IMG/VR virus record: IMGVR_UViG_3300045988_147588
Location: 1 to 42,816 of that record
Length of the DNA stretch: 42,816 nt
Source of the DNA: a virus
Strand: one strand, 5' to 3'
The notes under the pieces were generated by a model. The model searched no databases. It had not been told where the DNA came from and was given only the letters and a program-made list of their open reading frames with translations. Shown here one piece after another: positions 1-42,816 of this stretch (position 1 is the first letter of the stretch; each line of letters starts with the position of its first letter). Made by a program: the position numbers and the translations under genes.

Positions 1-75
1 CTTGTGCGCTGCTTGTGCTGCTGCTTGTGCGCTGCTTGTGCTGCTGCTTGTGCTGCTGCTTGTGTTGCTGCTTAT
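1..75. repeat. Tandem repeat array (alternating CTTGTGCGCTG / CTTGTGCTGCTG units, 23-bp compound period), cut by the left window edge
   Basis: Units read at 1-11, 12-23, 24-34, 35-46, 47-58, 59-70 (last degenerate). Same array at 42744-42816. Confidence 0.9.
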
Positions 76-14103: not shown

Positions 14104-14778
14104 TCACTCCCATTTAGTACCATAGTTTATTTTTTCTCTCTCTTTCTGGACATCACCATATTCCAGACAGATATAAGCCATAGTCACTATAGGGCTTTCA
14201 TGCATTAGCAATCTTTGTGTTTGAAGAAGATCATGTGTCTCATCGTAATACCACCTTCCAAATGACTTTCTCATTGAGTGGCAACCGATTTGATACTTAA
14301 CACCAGCTTCTTTTGCTAATGCTTTAATCTGTCTCCATGCGGTAACACGATTTATAGGAAAGTTATTTTCCTTACTGCTTGGAAACAAGTACTGACTTTG
14401 AGTAATGCCTAGCCACTTAATGTAGTCATTAATAGGCTGCATTACCTCTTTGGACATCGAATACTGCATACGTTTACCTGTCTTATGTTCAGTAAACGTA
14501 ACTTCACCATCACTGATATCTCTAGGTGTTAGTTCTATCAGCGTTGTGATTCTTAGTCCTGTATTTACGCCTAAATGCATTAGTATCTTCAAGCGATACC
14601 ATCTGAAATATTCTTCAGATGTTTCTTCAAGTGATTCCATTCTCACTCTTAAAATTCTTTGCATTTCTTCGTAATCTTCTTTCTTGAACGGTTTAACAAC
14701 TTCTCGACCGTGCTTATCGAGTGTCTTCCGTTCGTATTTCGAACCCTTTGGATTAAATCTCTTTAATTGTCTAGGCAT
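14104..14778 (-). CDS. Short tyrosine recombinase (224 aa, catalytic domain only)
   Basis: GLRITT (Arg), HSMRKSF (HxxR), LMHES...MAYI (His/Tyr). Overlaps the DnaD-like gene start region. Confidence 0.75.
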   Translation of the reverse strand: MPRQLKRFNPKGSKYERKTLDKHGREVVKPFKKEDYEEMQRILRVRMESLEETSEEYFRWYRLKILMHLGVNTGLRITTLIELTPRDISDGEVTFTEHKTGKRMQYSMSKEVMQPINDYIKWLGITQSQYLFPSSKENNFPINRVTAWRQIKALAKEAGVKYQIGCHSMRKSFGRWYYDETHDLLQTQRLLMHESPIVTMAYICLEYGDVQKEREKINYGTKWE

Positions 14779-16459: not shown

Positions 16460-16714
16460 TTAACGCTTTTTCTCACGTGCGTTTCTTGCTGCCAATATAT
16501 ATGGAGCAAAGAAACGTATCTTTTCTTCATTCTCTAGATCGTATCCGCGGATATCATGAATGAGGTCGTTTATTTCTTCCTCATCATATTTCCAATACCT
16601 GCCAACTCTAGAGCCTTTTAGCAATCCCACTTCTCTAAAAAGTGAGAACAGCTCTCTATCAAAGCCTGTATCTTTTGAGGCTTCAATAGCTGAATATCTT
16701 TTGTTTATTGACAT
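16460..16714 (-). CDS. Excisionase-type / MerR-like HTH protein (84 aa)
   Basis: YSAIEASKDTGFDRELFSLFREVGLLKGSRVGRYWKYDEEEI resembles excisionase-family HTH proteins. Sits next to the Cro-like gene. Confidence 0.5.
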   Translation of the reverse strand: MSINKRYSAIEASKDTGFDRELFSLFREVGLLKGSRVGRYWKYDEEEINDLIHDIRGYDLENEEKIRFFAPYILAARNAREKKR

Positions 16715-16737: not shown

Positions 16738-17060
16738 GTGAATTTAATTCAGCTAATCTTGTAAAAAAATATTTTCTATATCTTTTACCGTTAATTTTAA
16801 TGTCTTTTTCAAACCGACAATTTCAGATGCAGTAAAATCGCCCATCCCATTTAGCCTGTTATAAAGCGTTTCTCGCTTAATATTTGAGCGTTTTGCAATA
16901 ACAGTCATAGGAATTCCGCTTTCTTTAATTATTGTTTTTAATTTTTCTAATTTGACCATCTTTTCCTTTCTAGTGAATTTAATTCAACTTGCATAATTAT
17001 CTTATCTAAGAAGTGAATTATTGTCAACACTATAAATAGAAATGTTGAATTATTTTACAC
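16738..17060. promoter_or_regulatory. Genetic-switch operators
   Basis: Identical 15-mer AGTGAATTTAATTCA at 16738-16752 and 16972-16986 (TGAATT-N-AATTCA symmetry). Related AGTGAATTATTGTCAAC at 17012-17028 and GTTGAATTATTTTACAC at 17044-17060. Confidence 0.6.
16753..16959 (-). CDS. Cro-like HTH regulator (68 aa)
   Basis: Divergent from the CI-like gene. HTH IPMTVIAKRSNIKRETLYNRLNG. Confidence 0.65.
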   Translation of the reverse strand: MVKLEKLKTIIKESGIPMTVIAKRSNIKRETLYNRLNGMGDFTASEIVGLKKTLKLTVKDIENIFLQD

Positions 17061-17095
17061 AAACAGTTATTCTATCAGTGAAAGGACATGTTAAT

Positions 17096-17518
17096 ATGTT
17101 AAAATTATACGAAAATATTAAAAAATATCGTTTGCAATTGAGAATGAGCCAAAAAGAATTAGCAAAAAGGACTGGCTACACCGACAGAAGTATGATCACA
17201 AAAATTGAAAAAGGTCATGTAGACCTACCATTATCTAAAATAATTTTATTTGCTGATGTGTTGCAGACAACTCCTATTGAATTGATGGAACTATCTGATG
17301 ATGACTTAATGGAAGAAAGTACAATATATCATTCCAAGAATTCATTTACTCCAGATGATGTAAGAATGTTGGAAGTATATCATAAATCTTCACCAGAAAC
17401 ACAACAAATAATTAGATTGCTCTTGGCAAAAGAACAGGGTATTCCTGCTATAGCCGAGCAAGAACGCCCTATTGCCGATAATACGGATAATGAATCATCA
17501 CGCATTAAGGATAAATAA
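17096..17518 (+). CDS. CI-like XRE-family repressor (140 aa)
   Basis: ATG at 17096 after AAAGGA. HTH MSQKELAKRTGYTDRSMITKIEKG. Divergent from the Cro-like gene. Confidence 0.8.
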   Translation: MLKLYENIKKYRLQLRMSQKELAKRTGYTDRSMITKIEKGHVDLPLSKIILFADVLQTTPIELMELSDDDLMEESTIYHSKNSFTPDDVRMLEVYHKSSPETQQIIRLLLAKEQGIPAIAEQERPIADNTDNESSRIKDK

Positions 17519-17605: not shown

Positions 17606-17800
17606 CATTTTCAGATTTATTAAAACAGGTAAATATTCTTATTCGCAATGTTTTAACTAGTGTTTTTGCAATTTTTTCGCAAAATCGAGCGTTAAAACAC
17701 TAAAATAAACGGTTTATTAACTTTTTAAGCAAATAAACCTTAGAACAAAAAAGCTACCATCTAGGTAGCAGTGAAATTTAAAGCAAGGAAATTATAACAC

Positions 17801-18961
17801 ATGATAGATAATTCAGGAATATATGAGAGAAAGTCCAAAGCAGGTATTTCATTACAAATTATCCTTAGATATGGAAAAGGAAAAGATAGAAAATCGTTTA
17901 CCAAAACGATTAAAGTATCAGATTATCCAGATAAGAAAAGCGCATATGTTGTAGCTAGAATGATTAGAGATAAAGCACGTATTGATATTAGTGCTGGTAA
18001 AGCATTAGATAATACTGTGCCTAATGTTAAATGGTTCTTTGAAAAAGAATTAGAGTTATCTGGACTTTCAATTAAAACAAAAGCCAAACATAGAGTGTTA
18101 TACAAATACTCTATTGCACAATTTGAGGATGTTCCATTAAATAAAATTAAGACATCTGACATTCAACAATCAATTGTTGAATTTGCTGAAAATCATTCAA
18201 ATGACAGCATTCAAAGATTGGTTTCTGTATGGAGAGCTATTTACCATGCTGCATTAATGTTAGAGTATGAAATTACTGATAAGACTATAGCATTAAAGAA
18301 TGTTAAGTCTAAAATTGTTTCTATTCCAAGAAGCACAGCAACTGATGTAGAAACATTCAATCTGTTTTGTGATGAATTATTAAAATATAATTCAAAAGAT
18401 GGCGTGCCATGCAAGAGATCTCAAGACATTTGGTATATGCTGCAAATAATGAGATGGACAGGTTGTCGCACAGCAGAAGTGCTGGCACTTAACTGGAATG
18501 ATTTCAACGCAGAAAACAAAACGCTATATATCAATAAAAGTGTTGGTTCAACAGGAACAGAAACAAGAAAAATAATCACTACTAAAACTGTTGAATCAAT
18601 ACGCTATGTACCATGCACAGACGAACTAATAGTCATTTTAAATAGTCTTAGAGATTATTCTAGTTCTTCACCTATGATTATTGAGCAGGATGGAAAACCG
18701 TATGAAATAAACGATGTAAGTAACCATATAATGTTAGTATCAAAGAAATGTGGGATTAAGTTTAACGCTTATATGTTGAGACATTTATTCTCTACTACAC
18801 TATACCGTGAAGGTGTTAATCAAGCTGTTATCCGTGACTTGATGGGACATACTTCTTCCAGTATGACATTAGGCTATGCTAATACATCAGAAGAAGATAG
18901 GAAGAAAGCAATCAATAAAATAAAAGCCGAGGAGAAACAAGAAAATGAAGAAAACAACTAA
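17801..18961 (+). CDS. int: Tyrosine integrase (386 aa)
   Basis: GCRTAEVLAL (Arg), MLRHLFST (HxxR-type), LMGHTSSSMTLGYA (His...Tyr). Full N-terminal arm/core-binding region present. Confidence 0.9.
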   Translation: MIDNSGIYERKSKAGISLQIILRYGKGKDRKSFTKTIKVSDYPDKKSAYVVARMIRDKARIDISAGKALDNTVPNVKWFFEKELELSGLSIKTKAKHRVLYKYSIAQFEDVPLNKIKTSDIQQSIVEFAENHSNDSIQRLVSVWRAIYHAALMLEYEITDKTIALKNVKSKIVSIPRSTATDVETFNLFCDELLKYNSKDGVPCKRSQDIWYMLQIMRWTGCRTAEVLALNWNDFNAENKTLYINKSVGSTGTETRKIITTKTVESIRYVPCTDELIVILNSLRDYSSSSPMIIEQDGKPYEINDVSNHIMLVSKKCGIKFNAYMLRHLFSTTLYREGVNQAVIRDLMGHTSSSMTLGYANTSEEDRKKAINKIKAEEKQENEENN

Positions 18962-19190
18962 AATAACAAGATGGGGAAATTCTCAGGGAATCAGATTACC
19001 TAAAGGTGCTTTAAATTTATTATCTCTAAATATTGGTGATGAATTGTCTATTAGTATTGCGGATGGCAAAATAATTTTATCGTCAGTCAAAAATGAGTTT
19101 AAGTTTTCTGATTTGTTTTCAAATTACATTGGTGAAACAAGGCAAAAAGAATATTGGAACGATTCACCAACAGGAAAAGAGAACATCTAA
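18945..19190 (+). CDS. MazE/AbrB-family antitoxin homolog (81 aa), no adjacent same-strand toxin
   Basis: ITRWGNSQGIRLPKGAL...DGKIILS...FSDLFSNYIGE...EYWNDSPTGKE parallels E. coli MazE as I recall it. Overlaps the int 3' end by 17 nt, with GAGGAG SD. Confidence 0.7.
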   Translation: MKKTTKITRWGNSQGIRLPKGALNLLSLNIGDELSISIADGKIILSSVKNEFKFSDLFSNYIGETRQKEYWNDSPTGKENI

Positions 19191-19200
19191 AGTATAAAAT

Positions 19201-19226
19201 AAAAGCCGACTAGTTGTCGGTTTTTT
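19201..19226. terminator. Bidirectional rho-independent terminator
   Basis: AAAAGCCGAC-TAGTT-GTCGGTTTTT between convergent genes. Confidence 0.8.
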
Positions 19227-19644
19227 ATTGGTTTAAGTTAATTAATTCATCTAAGCTAATATATACAATTTTATTATCTGAAATCTGATTTGTTTCTTGA
19301 TAATGTCTATATTCATCTAATAGATCATAATATAGTCCATCTGTTATAGGCTTTCCTTTTGTAAAGGTATAATCCCCACATTCAATCATAAAAATATTAT
19401 CGAGCTGGGCATAGCAATATTTTGATATACCATCTTTTTCGCTTGGTTTTATCAGCTTATTAGAACGTTTTGCAGAAATATATACTTTATTAGGTTTAAC
19501 CGTATCTAATTGAATCAGTTCAACATACTTTTCTTCAGTGTTAACATCTATAACTATATATTTGTGTTTAACTTCTGATATAGTACCAGGTTCATTATTA
19601 AAACGAATTCTCAGCCAAATTGTATCTTTAATCTTCAACATCAT
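19225..19644 (-). CDS. Putative toxin, MazF/PemK-like N-terminal pattern (139 aa)
   Basis: KDTIWLRIRFNNEPGTISEVKHKYIVIDV resembles GDLIWVDFDPTKGSEQAGHRPAVVL of MazF. Start overlaps the upstream Panacea-domain gene. Confidence 0.4.
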   Translation of the reverse strand: MMLKIKDTIWLRIRFNNEPGTISEVKHKYIVIDVNTEEKYVELIQLDTVKPNKVYISAKRSNKLIKPSEKDGISKYCYAQLDNIFMIECGDYTFTKGKPITDGLYYDLLDEYRHYQETNQISDNKIVYISLDELINLNQ

Positions 19645-20143
19645 CAAAATCACTTTCTGCCGCATCGAACATTAAATACAACAAATCAGCATATTGTTCA
19701 CGATATTCATCTTTTCTTGAAATAGAATCCATGTAATATGATATGCCAGAATTTTTTTCTTTCCACTCATTATCTTCGTGCGATATTTCAATAAGTTCAT
19801 CGACAGAAGCGTCTTTAAACGTATCATAAATCTTATCCAAAAATATTTTTGTCTCTGAATCAATATCTGTTGATAAATTTGATTTCTTCAAGGACATATA
19901 TTTTTTTTGCACATTAAAAGCTACAGCACCATTATCATAAGCTAATAATGTATCTGTAAACAATGGTGTTCCATATTTAGCAAGATGAAGATTTTGTGCT
20001 AAATGTAAATATTTATTTAATCTAGCATTGCCATCATAAAAAGTGTGATTATTTTTTTCGATTAAGTTGTTAGTGAAAACTGTTTTATCTTTATCTTTCG
20101 ATAAAAAATATTTTGCAATTTCCGTCGCAGTATAGTTAGTCAT
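19628..20143 (-). CDS. Panacea-domain (DUF4065, GepA/SocA-like) antitoxin candidate (171 aa)
   Basis: LNKYLHLAQNLHLAKYGTPLFTDTLLAYDNGAV matches the DUF4065 core pattern. ATG at 20143 after AAGGTGGTGA. Confidence 0.65.
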   Translation of the reverse strand: MTNYTATEIAKYFLSKDKDKTVFTNNLIEKNNHTFYDGNARLNKYLHLAQNLHLAKYGTPLFTDTLLAYDNGAVAFNVQKKYMSLKKSNLSTDIDSETKIFLDKIYDTFKDASVDELIEISHEDNEWKEKNSGISYYMDSISRKDEYREQYADLLYLMFDAAESDFDDVED

Positions 20144-20229
20144 ATTTATCACCACCTTTTTGTAATCTAATTATACTATAGCTTAAAAATAAAAAAAGCA
20201 AATAGAAAGTTTAAAAAATATATAAACTT

Positions 20230-20456
20230 TGTTCGCAAAATTATTCGCAAAAATTAAAAAACCGCTTATTTATGCGGTTTTGTTAACTATAATGGTGCGG
20301 ATAACGGGAATAGTTACATTATTTTTAATTTATGCACTTTTAGAGCTTTCTGTGCGATTTCATAGTATTTATGCTGTATTTCGAATAATTCACATTGCAC
20401 TTTAAGCACATTCTAGAGACTTTAATGCGAACAAGATGTTCGCATTTTGTTCGCAT
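20230..20456. other. attP candidate region
   Basis: TTCGCAAAA at 20232-20240 and 20244-20252. TTCGCA at 20439-20444 and 20450-20455, inverted copy at 20426-20431. TGGTGCGGATAACGGGAAT (20293-20311) is the reverse complement of a tRNA-like 3' end ...CCCGTTATCCGCACCA. Confidence 0.4.
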
Positions 20457-20459
20457 TAT

Positions 20460-20873
20460 TTATACTCTAGTAGCATATCTATATGTTTTAATATCTCCAC
20501 CTTCAGAATCAACATCATTTAACCAAAGTTTAGATATTTCAACATATTTTTCAGTGTCATCATTAAACAAATCATGATAATCATTAAACATCATATTCAT
20601 TGTGTAATATCTGGTGGCTAACTTGCAGTTTCCACCAAGTACTTGATCCACTTCATTCATTGTCCATTTTTGTCCATACGGTTTCATTTCATGAACTAGA
20701 TATTCAGCCTTTTCTTTTGATAGAACTTCACCATATATAGTTTCATAAATTTCATCATATAAACAATCATAATCTTCTTTACTTAGTTTCTTGAAATATT
20801 CCTCAACAATTGGAATCCATTGCTTCATAGTTTCAGAAGATTTGGCAGTTTCCATCAATTCGCAAATTAACAT
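20460..20873 (-). CDS. Hypothetical protein (137 aa), last gene of the cargo cluster
   Basis: ORF track. Start overlaps the upstream stop. GGTGA SD. Confidence 0.6.
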   Translation of the reverse strand: MLICELMETAKSSETMKQWIPIVEEYFKKLSKEDYDCLYDEIYETIYGEVLSKEKAEYLVHEMKPYGQKWTMNEVDQVLGGNCKLATRYYTMNMMFNDYHDLFNDDTEKYVEISKLWLNDVDSEGGDIKTYRYATRV

Positions 20874-21277
20874 AGTTTAGTCACCACTACATTAATTGTT
20901 GCTTGAGTTAATTCTACACCAGTATTTACAAATTGAATTGTAGTTGGTGATGAGCAACAACATGTTCCATTATTTCTTGTTGCTTGAACTAAAGTAGTAA
21001 TAGATCCATGAATTCCTTCAGTTGCAACAACTGTTGGAATAGAAATCTTAGATTGAGATTGTTGTACACCATCTTTAGTCATTACAATTTCAATATCGCC
21101 CGCTGCGCCTGGTAAACCGCCTACATTTAGAACGATTTCATAAACACCTGAACAATTTAACTCAATTGATGAAACGCCGCTCAAAATGGCTGTTTTGCCC
21201 TTTTTAAGAGATACGCTATTAAACGGTAAAATTCCATTTGTAGCTATTGTTTGATTTATCGAATAAGCTTCTAACAT
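20867..21277 (-). CDS. C1q/TNF-like (BclA C-terminal-domain-like) protein with CCC motif (136 aa)
   Basis: Beta-rich pattern resembles the exosporium BclA C-terminal domain: GILPFNSV...GVYEIVLNVGG...IEIVMTKDGV...INVVVTKLC. Contains TCCCSSP. Confidence 0.45.
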   Translation of the reverse strand: MLEAYSINQTIATNGILPFNSVSLKKGKTAILSGVSSIELNCSGVYEIVLNVGGLPGAAGDIEIVMTKDGVQQSQSKISIPTVVATEGIHGSITTLVQATRNNGTCCCSSPTTIQFVNTGVELTQATINVVVTKLC

Positions 21278-21342: not shown

Positions 21343-21939
21343 CTAAATATTGTTTGTTCCGCATCCACTGTAGAATGGATTTGCACCGCTACAATAACTT
21401 GTCTGTGTAGGATATCTTACAACTCCTGCCACAGCATTTTGTAATTGCAACGCGTTGATTTGGTTCTGCATATCATTCATTCTGTTTGTTGTGATAGCAT
21501 CAAGAATCTTTTGTGTTTGTGCCACTGTAGTAGCGTTAATGCTAGCAGTATTTAAGCTGGCATTATAATTTACACCATCAATTGCTCTTAGTGTTTCACA
21601 ACAACATCTCTGTTGTTCTGCAAAGCCTTGTTGAATAGTACTCTGAACATCTCTGATTTCTCCTAGATTGTTCATCGCTAAATCTTTCATTTGAGAAATG
21701 ACTTCTGAACCAACTTCCTGAGTTCTTGCCTCAATATCTCTTTGTCCATTTTGGATTGAGTTGAGGTCAATTGCTCTTTGCAAATCGCCTTGTTGCAATC
21801 CGCCACCACCTAATCCAAAGCCATTGCCACCAAATAATAGAATCAATAATGCGAATATCCACATGAATGAACTATCCCATCCATAGCCTGAATCTTTCTG
21901 CATTAAAGCCACATCACTAGCTGTTAAGCCGTTTTCCAT
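21343..21939 (-). CDS. Membrane-anchored Gly-rich / coiled-coil protein with CCC motif (198 aa)
   Basis: FMWIFALLILLFGGNGFGLGGGG transmembrane + Gly segment. Q/N-rich helical region. QQRCCCETL. C-terminal YCSGANPFYSGCG. Confidence 0.6.
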   Translation of the reverse strand: MENGLTASDVALMQKDSGYGWDSSFMWIFALLILLFGGNGFGLGGGGLQQGDLQRAIDLNSIQNGQRDIEARTQEVGSEVISQMKDLAMNNLGEIRDVQSTIQQGFAEQQRCCCETLRAIDGVNYNASLNTASINATTVAQTQKILDAITTNRMNDMQNQINALQLQNAVAGVVRYPTQTSYCSGANPFYSGCGTNNI

Positions 21940-42743: not shown

Positions 42744-42816
42744 CTTGTGCGCTGCTTGTGCTGCTGCTTGTGCGCTGCTTGTGCTGCTGCTTGTGCGCTG
42801 CTTGTGCTGCTGCTTG
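42744..42816. repeat. Tandem repeat array (same 11/12-nt units as 1-75), cut by the right window edge
   Basis: Units at 42744-42754, 42755-42766, 42767-42777, 42778-42789, 42790-42800, 42801-42812, then a partial CTTG. Confidence 0.9.

What the first reader, a model, noticed from the sequence alone, without database searches (positions are those of the whole stretch)
18945..20143. Non-canonical TA neighbourhood: int-coupled orphan MazE homolog converging on a Panacea-antitoxin / MazF-like toxin pair
18945..19190 (+) is a full-length MazE-like protein: SpoVT/AbrB N-terminus plus a C-terminal toxin-binding-like tail EYWNDSPTGKE. It is translationally coupled to the integrase through a 17-nt overlap and has no downstream toxin.

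Across a shared bidirectional terminator, 19628..20143 (-) is a DUF4065/Panacea-domain protein. Its 3' end overlaps 19225..19644 (-), whose N-terminus (KDTIWLRIRFNNEPGTISEVKHKYIVIDV) resembles the MazF/PemK beta-barrel start.

So a possible MazF-like toxin has two different candidate antitoxins on opposite strands. One of them is tied to integrase expression. This could link toxin control to lysogeny or excision, or act as anti-defence against host MazEF-type abortive-infection systems.
Basis: partly seen in the sequence, partly recalled or inferred. Interest (0 to 1): 0.7.

Follow-up and report, generated by a model that had tools for sequence, protein, structure and literature searches.

The report
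Two independent toxin-antitoxin cassettes beside integrase
A temperate phage carries, side by side next to its integrase and attachment site, an ordinary Panacea-antitoxin/MazF-fold-toxin pair and a separate toxin-less MazE antitoxin gene; related phages carry either one without the other, so the two are neighbours by cassette insertion rather than one three-part system.

Summary
18945-19190(+) is a full-length MazE-family protein that overlaps int by 17 nt and has no toxin gene downstream. 19628-20143(-) is a Panacea (PF13274) protein that overlaps 19225-19644(-) by 17 nt. A bidirectional terminator lies at 19201-19225.

The 139-aa protein matches no sequence family.

The proposed functional link is not supported. 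Relatives show int-mazE without panAT (7 contigs), panAT-int without mazE (1), and a decayed panA alone (1). Only the window has both. The two are separate indels: mazE about 18931-19195, bracketed by a 16-nt direct repeat, and panAT about 19192-20212. The MazE tail is identical whether or not PanT is present. PanT relatives have PanA upstream in 5 of 5 readable cases.

Distant MazE relatives are followed by PemK in 67 of 80 loci, so the phage clade is truly orphan. It is under purifying selection.

Best reading: a PanAT type II toxin-antitoxin moron, plus an orphan MazE that probably neutralises a MazF encoded outside the phage, as phi3T AimX/YosL do. Both kinds are already known. All of this sits next to attP (about 20291-20309, tRNA-Leu).

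The parts
17801..18961 (+). Tyrosine integrase, 386 aa. Its last ~10 codons (AEEKQENEENN) are read from the inserted mazE cassette.
   Evidence: PF00589 E 5e-21 and phrog_1 integrase. Relatives without mazE end earlier: 377 aa in L020, and ...KKIKTD* in L014.
18915..18930 (.). Left copy of the 16-nt direct repeat ATAAAATAAAAGCCGA that brackets the mazE cassette.
   Evidence: Exactly two copies in the window, at 18915 and 19194. L014, which lacks mazE, has a single copy fused to the terminator.
18945..19190 (+). Orphan full-length MazE/PemI/ChpS-family antitoxin homologue, 81 aa. It has an AbrB/SpoVT DNA-binding N-terminus and a toxin-binding-type tail. It lies in the same orientation as cI and int.
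   Evidence: PF04014 at 40.1 bits. NCBIfam MazE/ChpS hits below the equivalog cut-offs. E. coli MazE E 4e-10. Tail motif alignment. dN/dS 0.17-0.31. No PemK-like ORF anywhere in the genome.
19194..19209 (.). Right copy of the 16-nt direct repeat. It overlaps the 5' half of the terminator stem.
   Evidence: sequence.
19201..19225 (.). Bidirectional intrinsic terminator shared by int-mazE (+) and panA-panT (-).
   Evidence: Scored on both strands. The same hairpin directly follows int in L014.
19225..19644 (-). PanT: 139-aa toxin candidate with a MazF/PemK fold, from a small unannotated sequence family.
   Evidence: No library hit. 40 hits among 1.84 billion representative proteins. AlphaFold2 pLDDT 96.8. 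Foldseek finds MazF structures in the PDB and PemK-like proteins among viral models. 3 of 33 relatives weakly hit PF02452. dN/dS 0.09.
19628..20143 (-). PanA: Panacea-domain antitoxin, 171 aa, with an acidic C-terminal tail (DAAESDFDDVED). It overlaps panT by 17 nt.
   Evidence: PF13274 at 45.2 bits. 460 homologues. A PanA homologue lies immediately upstream of every PanT relative whose upstream DNA is visible.
20144..20290 (-). panAT leader and promoter region, between the attP core and the panA start. It contains a TATAAT box, an AAGGTGGTG ribosome-binding site, and a terminator hairpin at 20258-20281 that insulates it from the attachment junction.
   Evidence: Sequence read directly. Hairpin scored. 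The promoter is inferred. The consensus scan did not list it.
20291..20309 (.). attP core, identical to the 3' end of host tRNA-Leu genes. In the prophage the order is tRNA-Leu/att, panA, panT, mazE, int.
   Evidence: Homology of L012, L017 and L019 to the window stops at 20309, inside a tRNA-Leu gene.

Best explanation
The window is a complete temperate phage genome. The stretch between the int 3' end and attP (the 3' end of tRNA-Leu) is a hot spot for accessory-gene cassettes. In this phage it holds two unrelated cassettes side by side.

(1) panA-panT is a standard bicistronic type II toxin-antitoxin pair with its own promoter. PanA, a Panacea-domain protein, binds and neutralises PanT. PanT is a highly diverged MazF/PemK-fold protein and most likely an endoribonuclease that stops translation when freed. 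In the lysogen the pair would act as a prophage-borne addiction or phage-exclusion module.

(2) mazE is a toxin-less but intact MazE-family antitoxin gene. It was inserted into the terminator at the int 3' end and is transcribed with the lysogeny genes cI and int. Its most likely job is to bind and neutralise a canonical MazF/PemK toxin encoded outside the phage. That toxin could be the host's MazEF, or a PemIK-type addiction module on a plasmid or rival element. The phage or lysogen would thereby be protected from MazF-mediated exclusion.

The convergent arrangement with PanT is a consequence of where the cassettes landed. It is not a functional three-part system.

Shown: gene identities, the PanT fold, cassette boundaries, independent assortment, orphan status, the attP position, and purifying selection.

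Inferred: PanT toxicity and RNase activity, PanA-PanT binding, the target of the orphan MazE, and when it is expressed.
For: Genome and attachment site
- The contig ends share a 50-bp direct repeat, so the genome is complete.
- The attP core sits at the 3' end of tRNA-Leu, shown by three host-junction contigs.

PanA-PanT
- PF13274 matches above its cut-off.
- The genes overlap by 17 nt, antitoxin first.
- PanA lies upstream of PanT relatives in the window clade, L001, L003, L110 and L114. That is 5 of 5 readable cases.
- In L110 the pair again converges on an integrase-like ORF.
- PanT has a MazF fold.
- Kurata et al. 2022 already list PemK among PanA-associated toxins. [quoted passage not shown]

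Independence of the two cassettes
- mazE+/panAT-: L004-L010.
- mazE-/panAT+: L014.
- Decayed panA only: L020.
- Both: the window only.
- Indel boundaries are 18931-19195 for mazE and 19192/19196-20212 for panAT.
- A 16-nt direct repeat brackets mazE.

Orphan status and integrity of MazE
- No PemK or second PanT is found in the whole genome.
- Among distant MazE relatives, 67 of 80 genomic loci have a PF02452 gene immediately downstream. So do P0177, P0181 and P0183, and P0181 sits on Rep3/relaxase plasmids.
- Every member of the phage clade is 81 aa, with an invariant WGNSQG.RLPK loop and a conserved tail.
- dN/dS is 0.17-0.31.

Precedent
- phi3T AimX and YosL are phage MazE-like antitoxins. 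They neutralise host MazF, and MazEF blocks the phage when they are deleted (bioRxiv 10.1101/2023.04.27.537455).
- Orphan antitoxin-like counter-defence against DarTG1 is also known (PMC11825919).
Against: - No experiment or complex model links the MazE-like protein to any MazF. The host genome is unknown, so the presence of a host or plasmid MazF could not be checked.
- The gene sits on the lysogeny side (cI, int), whereas AimX and YosL act on the lytic side. The timing therefore differs from the precedent.
- The clade's tail (KEYWND...GKE.I) has lost the terminal Trp of canonical relatives, so its target specificity is uncertain.
- PanT is not detectably a PF02452 member by sequence. It has no hit of its own, and hhalign against 69 PemK sequences gives E 0.01 and probability 4%.
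- The catalytic Arg position appears to be His in that non-significant alignment, and the family's near-invariant Pro28 is Lys in the window protein. RNase activity is therefore an inference from fold alone.
- The counts behind 'independent assortment' are small: 10 informative contigs, several from closely related phages.
Confidence: 0.6

Rival explanations
1. The MazE-like protein is a second, integrase-linked antitoxin for the phage's own MazF-fold PanT, so toxin activity is tied to lysogeny or excision.
For: - PanT has a MazF fold.
- MazE tails bind MazF-fold toxins (established knowledge; solved MazE-MazF complexes such as 1ub4 and 4me7 appear).
- The two genes are separated only by a shared terminator in this genome.
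- Both lie at the same prophage end.
Against: - Seven related contigs keep int-mazE with no panAT. L014 keeps panAT with no mazE.
- The tail is identical in P0163, which comes from phages without PanT.
- PanT shares only 10-16% identity with solved MazFs and is not recognised by PemK profiles. A canonical MazE tail is therefore unlikely to fit it.
- PanA is PanT's conserved partner.
- The two cassettes have separate insertion scars.
Confidence: 0.1
2. The MazE-like protein works mainly as an AbrB/SpoVT-type DNA-binding regulator of the phage, for example of int, excision or the lysogeny switch. It is not a toxin neutraliser.
For: - The DNA-binding loop WGNSQG.RLPK is invariant across the clade.
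- The gene is always directly downstream of int, in the lysogeny orientation.
- There is no toxin in the phage.
- Repeated TTCGCA motifs near attP and upstream of int could be binding sites.
Against: - Sister phages with a 91-92% identical Int lack the gene (L014, L020), so it is dispensable for integration and excision.
- A separate MerR-like Xis candidate exists at 16460-16714(-), although the Pfam hit is weak.
- The toxin-binding-type C-terminal tail is conserved under purifying selection. A pure DNA binder would not need it.
- The TTCGCA motif count is not above chance genome-wide.
Confidence: 0.2
3. The MazE-like gene is a decaying remnant of a MazEF pair whose toxin was lost, with no current function.
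For: Its closest canonical relatives all have a PemK gene downstream. Here the terminator follows directly.
Against: - At least 12 clusters at 67-88% identity all keep an intact 81-aa ORF.
- dN/dS is 0.17-0.31, with dS up to 1.36 between clade members.
- A strong ribosome-binding site is retained.
Confidence: 0.05

Closest known systems
PanA-PanT (Panacea/DUF4065) type II toxin-antitoxin systems with EndoA/PemK/MazF-like toxins (Kurata et al. 2022, PMC8832971)
   Same: - A PF13274 antitoxin lies upstream of, and overlaps, a small toxin gene.
- The toxin has a MazF/PemK fold that sequence searches do not detect. The validated P. moraviensis and B. ruminantium PanTs were likewise recognised only by HHpred.
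- The pair is carried on a prophage, as several PanATs are.
   Different: - The toxin belongs to a separate, very small sequence family: 40 hits among 1.84 billion representatives.
- A near-invariant His-Pro sits where MazF has Arg-Pro.
- Nothing here has been tested experimentally.
Canonical MazEF / PemIK / ChpSB type II systems
   Same: The 81-aa protein aligns with E. coli MazE (E 4e-10; N-terminal domain and linker) and over nearly its full length with the ChpS model (residues 6-76). It shares the AbrB N-terminal domain and the acidic/aromatic tail motif with relatives that sit upstream of PF02452 genes.
   Different: - There is no PemK gene downstream or anywhere else in the phage.
- The gene has no promoter region of its own and is fused to the int 3' end.
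- The tail variant KEYWND..GKE.I lacks the terminal Trp.
- Scores are far below the NCBIfam equivalog cut-offs, for example 42 against 113.
Phage-encoded MazE-like antitoxins AimX and YosL of phi3T/SPbeta (bioRxiv 10.1101/2023.04.27.537455); orphan antitoxin counter-defence in T4-like phages against DarTG1 (PMC11825919)
   Same: A temperate phage carries an antitoxin homologue without its toxin. The likely target is a MazF encoded outside the phage.
   Different: - AimX and YosL keep only the MazF-binding C-terminal part of the B. subtilis type of MazE, and they are expressed on the lytic side.
- The protein here is full length, keeps the DNA-binding domain, is of the E. coli MazE/PemI type, and sits in the lysogeny module next to int.
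- No functional data exist for it.

Membership tests
Panacea-domain antitoxin (PanA, PF13274 SocA_Panacea) | Panacea domain detected above the curated threshold | tested here: met
   45.2 bits against a cut-off of 25.7, E 2e-11, residues 42-128. phrog_1281 E 2.7e-20. 460 homologues, and all 120 listed carry PF13274.
Panacea-domain antitoxin (PanA, PF13274 SocA_Panacea) | Conserved two-gene arrangement with an adjacent toxin gene | tested here: met
   17-nt overlap with the 139-aa ORF. The same pairing is seen in L001, L003, L110, L114 and the L012-L019 clade.
Panacea-domain antitoxin (PanA, PF13274 SocA_Panacea) | Direct neutralisation of the toxin by complex formation | not testable with these tools
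   This needs co-expression rescue and pull-down experiments.
MazF/PemK toxin (PF02452) | Sequence-profile match to PemK_toxin | tested here: not met
   The window protein has no hit at E <= 1. Only 3 of 33 relatives hit, best E 2.7e-4. hhalign against 69 PemK sequences gives E 0.01 and probability 4% over 49 N-terminal columns.
MazF/PemK toxin (PF02452) | MazF/Kid/CcdB-type SH3-like barrel fold | tested here: met
   The model has pLDDT 96.8. 49 of the top 50 PDB matches are MazF toxins (the other is the type III toxin CptN), at probability 0.99-1.0 and target-normalised TM 0.50-0.74. The viral library returns PemK-like proteins and endoribonucleases.
MazF/PemK toxin (PF02452) | Catalytic Arg (R25/R29) and Thr (T48/T52) of MazF endoribonucleases | tested here: inconclusive
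   In the non-significant hhalign alignment, the near-invariant His27 falls on the Arg of the RP motif and Ser/Thr46 falls next to the CPIT Thr. No residue-level structural superposition was available.
MazF/PemK toxin (PF02452) | Toxicity and RNA cleavage | not testable with these tools
   This needs expression and RNA-cleavage assays.
MazE/PemI/ChpS antitoxin (PF04014 plus C-terminal toxin-binding tail) | N-terminal SpoVT/AbrB-type domain | tested here: met
   PF04014 at 40.1 bits against a cut-off of 24.7, residues 7-51. E. coli MazE 1mvf/1ub4, E 4e-10.
MazE/PemI/ChpS antitoxin (PF04014 plus C-terminal toxin-binding tail) | C-terminal tail with the conserved acidic/aromatic toxin-binding motif | tested here: met
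   KEYWNDSPTGKENI aligns with [DE]xDWGxPxGKE[IL]W of relatives that have PemK partners. The ChpS model aligns residues 6-76. The terminal Trp is replaced by Ile. All NCBIfam equivalog cut-offs are missed, so it is a family member and not an equivalog.
MazE/PemI/ChpS antitoxin (PF04014 plus C-terminal toxin-binding tail) | Cognate PemK/MazF gene immediately downstream in the same operon | tested here: not met
   A terminator follows directly. The whole genome has no PemK-like ORF. None of 8 readable contexts in the phage clade has one (the window plus L004-L010), against 67 of 80 distant relatives.
Phage orphan antitoxin used as counter-defence (AimX/YosL type) | Antitoxin homologue in a phage genome without its toxin, kept intact by selection | tested here: met
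Phage orphan antitoxin used as counter-defence (AimX/YosL type) | Neutralises a host-encoded toxin and thereby rescues phage growth | not testable with these tools
   The host genome is unknown. No close relative of the prophage was found among the 185,579 species representatives.

The most novel reading that the evidence does not exclude
The int-linked orphan MazE is a lysogeny-side regulator of MazF-type toxin activity. By titrating a host MazF, or more weakly the phage's own MazF-fold PanT, at the time int is expressed, it would bias the lysis-lysogeny outcome or protect the cell during integration and excision. This would mirror the phi3T AimX-MazF circuit from the lysogeny side. It would also make the window phage a natural case of cross-talk between a classical MazE and a Panacea-controlled MazF-fold toxin.
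Probability: 0.1. Interest if true: 0.6.

Novelty: new member of a known kind. Interest (0 to 1): 0.3.

Why it matters
The apparently non-canonical toxin-antitoxin neighbourhood resolves into two ordinary mobile cassettes stacked in a phage moron hot spot. This guards against over-reading gene adjacency.

Two modest points remain of value.

- It adds a small, previously unannotated MazF-fold toxin family to the toxins partnered with Panacea antitoxins.
- It documents a clade of temperate gut phages that keep an intact, full-length, toxin-less MazE next to int. This is a candidate anti-MazF factor that could be tested as AimX and YosL were.

The indel series across sister phages (both cassettes, either one, or neither) gives natural controls for such experiments.

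Tried and rejected
- Single-sequence AlphaFold2 of PanT was useless (pLDDT 31.8). It worked only with the 33-sequence alignment.
- Searches of PDB sequences with PanT alone and with its profile gave only chance hits.
- hhalign of the PanT family against PemK alignments of 5 and 69 sequences was not significant.
- Megablast of the region against GenBank phages found nothing. A tblastn of PanT found nothing.
- A tblastn of MazE found only two unverified Listeria records. The one examined (H1) carries a canonical MazE-PemK pair, so it is not an orphan.
- The search for related loci with the full PanT alignment failed because it had no conserved stretch.
- Single-protein scans for MazE and PanT in viral and JGI metagenome contigs found no relatives.
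- I first read L001 (panAT followed by host PTS genes, homology ending at 19257) as a sign that attP lay between mazE and panT. I rejected this once three junction contigs placed the core at 20291-20309, in tRNA-Leu. L001 is a more distant copy of panAT in another context.
- I considered the MazE-like gene as an excisionase. I rejected this because a MerR-like Xis candidate exists and sister phages with near-identical Int lack mazE.
- P0131 and P0154 are long tandem-repeat proteins whose scores look spurious. I left them out of the family alignment.
- The host species could not be identified. The genome-collection scan returned only distant MazE relatives.
Full report
**What is there**

The window is the whole of a 42,816-bp contig whose ends share a 50-bp direct repeat. 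It is therefore a complete, circularly assembled genome, with 33% G+C. It encodes a large terminase, a capsid protein, a 1552-aa ORF at the position of a tail tape-measure gene, a replisome organiser, a DnaC-like loader and a methylase. It also has a lysogeny module: a Cro-like gene and a candidate Xis on the minus strand, and cI-like (17042-17518) and int (17801-18961) on the plus strand.

- 18945-19190(+) encodes an 81-aa protein with a MazE_antitoxin/AbrB domain (PF04014, 40.1 bits against a cut-off of 24.7). Its best solved relative is E. coli MazE (E 4e-10). It starts 17 nt before the int stop and has its own GAGGAG ribosome-binding site.
- A hairpin at 19201-19225 scores as an intrinsic terminator on both strands.
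- On the minus strand, 19628-20143 encodes a 171-aa Panacea-domain protein (PF13274, 45.2 bits against 25.7).
- That gene overlaps by 17 nt a 139-aa ORF at 19225-19644, which matches nothing in Pfam, PHROGs, PADLOC or NCBIfam.

**The 139-aa protein**

A word-indexed search of 5.8 billion proteins found only itself and one 84%-identical relative. An exhaustive phmmer search over 1.84 billion representatives found 40 hits. They form a small family of proteins about 140 aa long, with the consensus GQVLWLK.RFNN.G..S...HPYLV...QLDS...ETVI.KDSY.QLDN. Two long repeat proteins among the hits look spurious.

Folding the protein alone failed (pLDDT 32). With the 33-sequence alignment the model reached pLDDT 96.8 and pTM 0.89. 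Foldseek against the PDB returned almost only MazF toxins from B. cereus, M. tuberculosis, B. subtilis, S. aureus and E. coli. These matched at probability 1.0, target-normalised TM 0.60-0.74 and 10-16% identity. The viral library returned proteins named PemK-like or endoribonuclease.

At sequence level the link is below significance. Three of 33 relatives touch PF02452, best E 2.7e-4. Profile-profile comparison with 69 genuine PemK proteins gives E 0.01 over the N-terminal 49 columns. That alignment places the family's near-invariant His27-Pro28 on the Arg-Pro of MazF, and Ser/Thr46 next to the CPIT threonine.

The protein is not a detectable PF02452 member, and its catalytic residues are unconfirmed.

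**Its partner**

Wherever the DNA upstream of a family member is visible, a Panacea gene sits there and overlaps or nearly abuts it. This holds for the window clade (L012-L019), L001, L003, L110 and L114.

This is the standard PanA-PanT type II arrangement. Kurata et al. 2022 list PemK among PanA-associated toxin domains. They validated two PanTs that only HHpred recognised as EndoA/PemK/MazF-like (PMC8832971). The pair here is a new member of that known kind.

dN/dS is 0.09 for PanT and 0.15 for PanA.

**The MazE-like gene is a true orphan**

The protein aligns from the AbrB domain to the tail with canonical relatives. Its KEYWNDSPTGKENI corresponds to their [DE]xDWGxPxGKE[IL]W.

The more distant relatives are canonical.
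- P0177, P0181 and P0183 (37-48% identity) are each followed by a PF02452 gene. P0181 sits on small Rep3/relaxase plasmids.
- Of 80 genomic loci with relatives at 32-56% identity, 67 have a PemK gene immediately downstream.
- The Listeria record examined (H1), one of the two hits among GenBank phages, also has a canonical pair.

The phage clade differs. It comprises 12 clusters at 67-88% identity, and every member is 81 aa. No member has a PemK gene downstream. The complete window genome has no PemK-like ORF at all.

The gene is not decaying. dN/dS is 0.17-0.31, with dS up to 1.36 within the clade.

**The two modules are independent cassettes**

Comparison with related contigs gives these combinations.

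| Contigs | Arrangement | mazE | panAT |
|---|---|---|---|
| L004-L010 (7 contigs, two int subtypes) | int-mazE converging directly on the DUF7841 gene | present | absent |
| L014 | panA-panT (99% identical) converging directly on int | absent | present |
| L020 | panA with in-frame deletions; panT replaced after nine codons by unrelated sequence | absent | decayed panA only |
| Window | both cassettes | present | present |

- The blastn boundaries are sharp. mazE spans about 18931-19195 and panAT about 19192/19196-20212.
- The mazE cassette is bracketed by a 16-nt direct repeat, ATAAAATAAAAGCCGA, at 18915 and 19194. In L014 the single copy forms the end of int plus the terminator stem.
- The 17-nt int overlap and the longer Int tail (386 aa against 377) are therefore by-products of the insertion. 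L004-type phages instead have a 26-nt gap.
- The MazE tail in the window is identical to that of P0162 and P0163, and P0163 comes from phages that lack PanT (L004/L005).

These facts argue against a dedicated MazE-PanT relationship.

**Where the cluster sits**

Three contigs (L012, L017, L019) lose homology to the window at 20309, inside a tRNA-Leu gene. The phage sequence at 20291-20309 reproduces the tRNA 3' end. This is the attP core.

In the prophage the order is tRNA-Leu/att, panA, panT, mazE, int. The whole cluster is therefore the att-proximal accessory (moron) region.

A further relative, L121, shares the DUF7841 side up to 20406 and then has a different lysogeny module. L001 carries an 85%-identical panAT next to host PTS genes. 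The region and the cassette are both mobile.

**Mechanism**

For panAT I commit to the standard model. PanA binds and neutralises the MazF-fold PanT. Freed PanT most likely cleaves RNA and arrests translation. The pair then serves prophage maintenance or exclusion of other phages. These steps are inferred from family knowledge and fold, not shown.

For the orphan MazE the best-supported role is neutralisation of a canonical MazF/PemK encoded outside the phage, on the host chromosome or a plasmid. The precedent is phi3T/SPbeta AimX and YosL. These are MazE-like, neutralise host MazF, and are required to escape MazEF (bioRxiv 10.1101/2023.04.27.537455). Another precedent is the orphan antitoxin-like counter-defence against DarTG1 (PMC11825919).

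It differs from that precedent in three ways. It is full length and retains the DNA-binding domain. It sits on the lysogeny side next to int. Its tail variant lacks the terminal Trp.

**Verdict**

The parts are right, and anti-MazF counter-defence is plausible. The proposed three-part circuit is not supported.
- Novelty: new member of known kinds, namely a PanAT pair with a MazF-fold toxin and a phage orphan antitoxin.
- Interest is modest, at 0.3.

Noticed in passing
window 1-50 and 42767-42816: The contig ends share a 50-bp exact direct repeat. The window is therefore a complete, circularly assembled phage genome of about 42.77 kb.
   Followed up: partly
window 20291-20309; L012 2435-2519, L017 465-549, L019 22-106: The attP core is identical to the 3' end of host tRNA-Leu. 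Prophage junctions occur at two different tRNA-Leu genes, anticodon TAG in L012 and CAG in L017 and L019.
   Followed up: yes
window 20232-20252, 20423-20458, 17676-17684: TTCGCA(A/T)3 motifs cluster on both sides of the attP core (5 of 9 genome-wide copies), and one more lies upstream of int. They are possible integrase arm sites or an operator. The genome-wide count is not above chance.
   Followed up: partly
window 18915-18930 and 19194-19209: A 16-nt direct repeat, ATAAAATAAAAGCCGA, brackets the mazE cassette. The right copy forms half of the terminator stem. The mazE-less relative L014 has one copy.
   Followed up: yes
L020 7989-8616: In a sister phage PanA has in-frame deletions (151 aa). 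PanT is replaced after its first nine codons by an unrelated 65-aa ORF. This looks like decay of the toxin-antitoxin pair after loss of the toxin.
   Followed up: partly
window 14104-14778 (-): A second, small (224 aa) tyrosine recombinase (PF00589) lies in the replication module, next to the replisome organiser and the DnaC-like loader. It is conserved in L006.
   Followed up: no
window 20867-21277 (-) and 21343-21939 (-): Two conserved small proteins with Cys-triplet motifs (GTCCCSSP and QQRCCCE) lie between the lysis genes and the DUF7841 gene. Neither matches a Pfam family.
   Followed up: no
window 16460-16714 (-): An 84-aa protein with a weak MerR-type helix-turn-helix hit lies beside the Cro-like gene. 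It is the likely excisionase.
   Followed up: no
L001 1-3241: A panA-panT copy 85% identical in DNA lies directly next to host-like PRD/PTS-EIIA and glucosamine-6-phosphate isomerase genes, with its PanT C-terminus altered. The cassette therefore also occurs outside this phage's att context.
   Followed up: partly
L121 (IMGVR_UViG_3300045988_086850): A related phage shares the DUF7841 side up to window 20406. It then carries a different lysogeny module, with no Int, MazE or PanAT homologue.
   Followed up: partly
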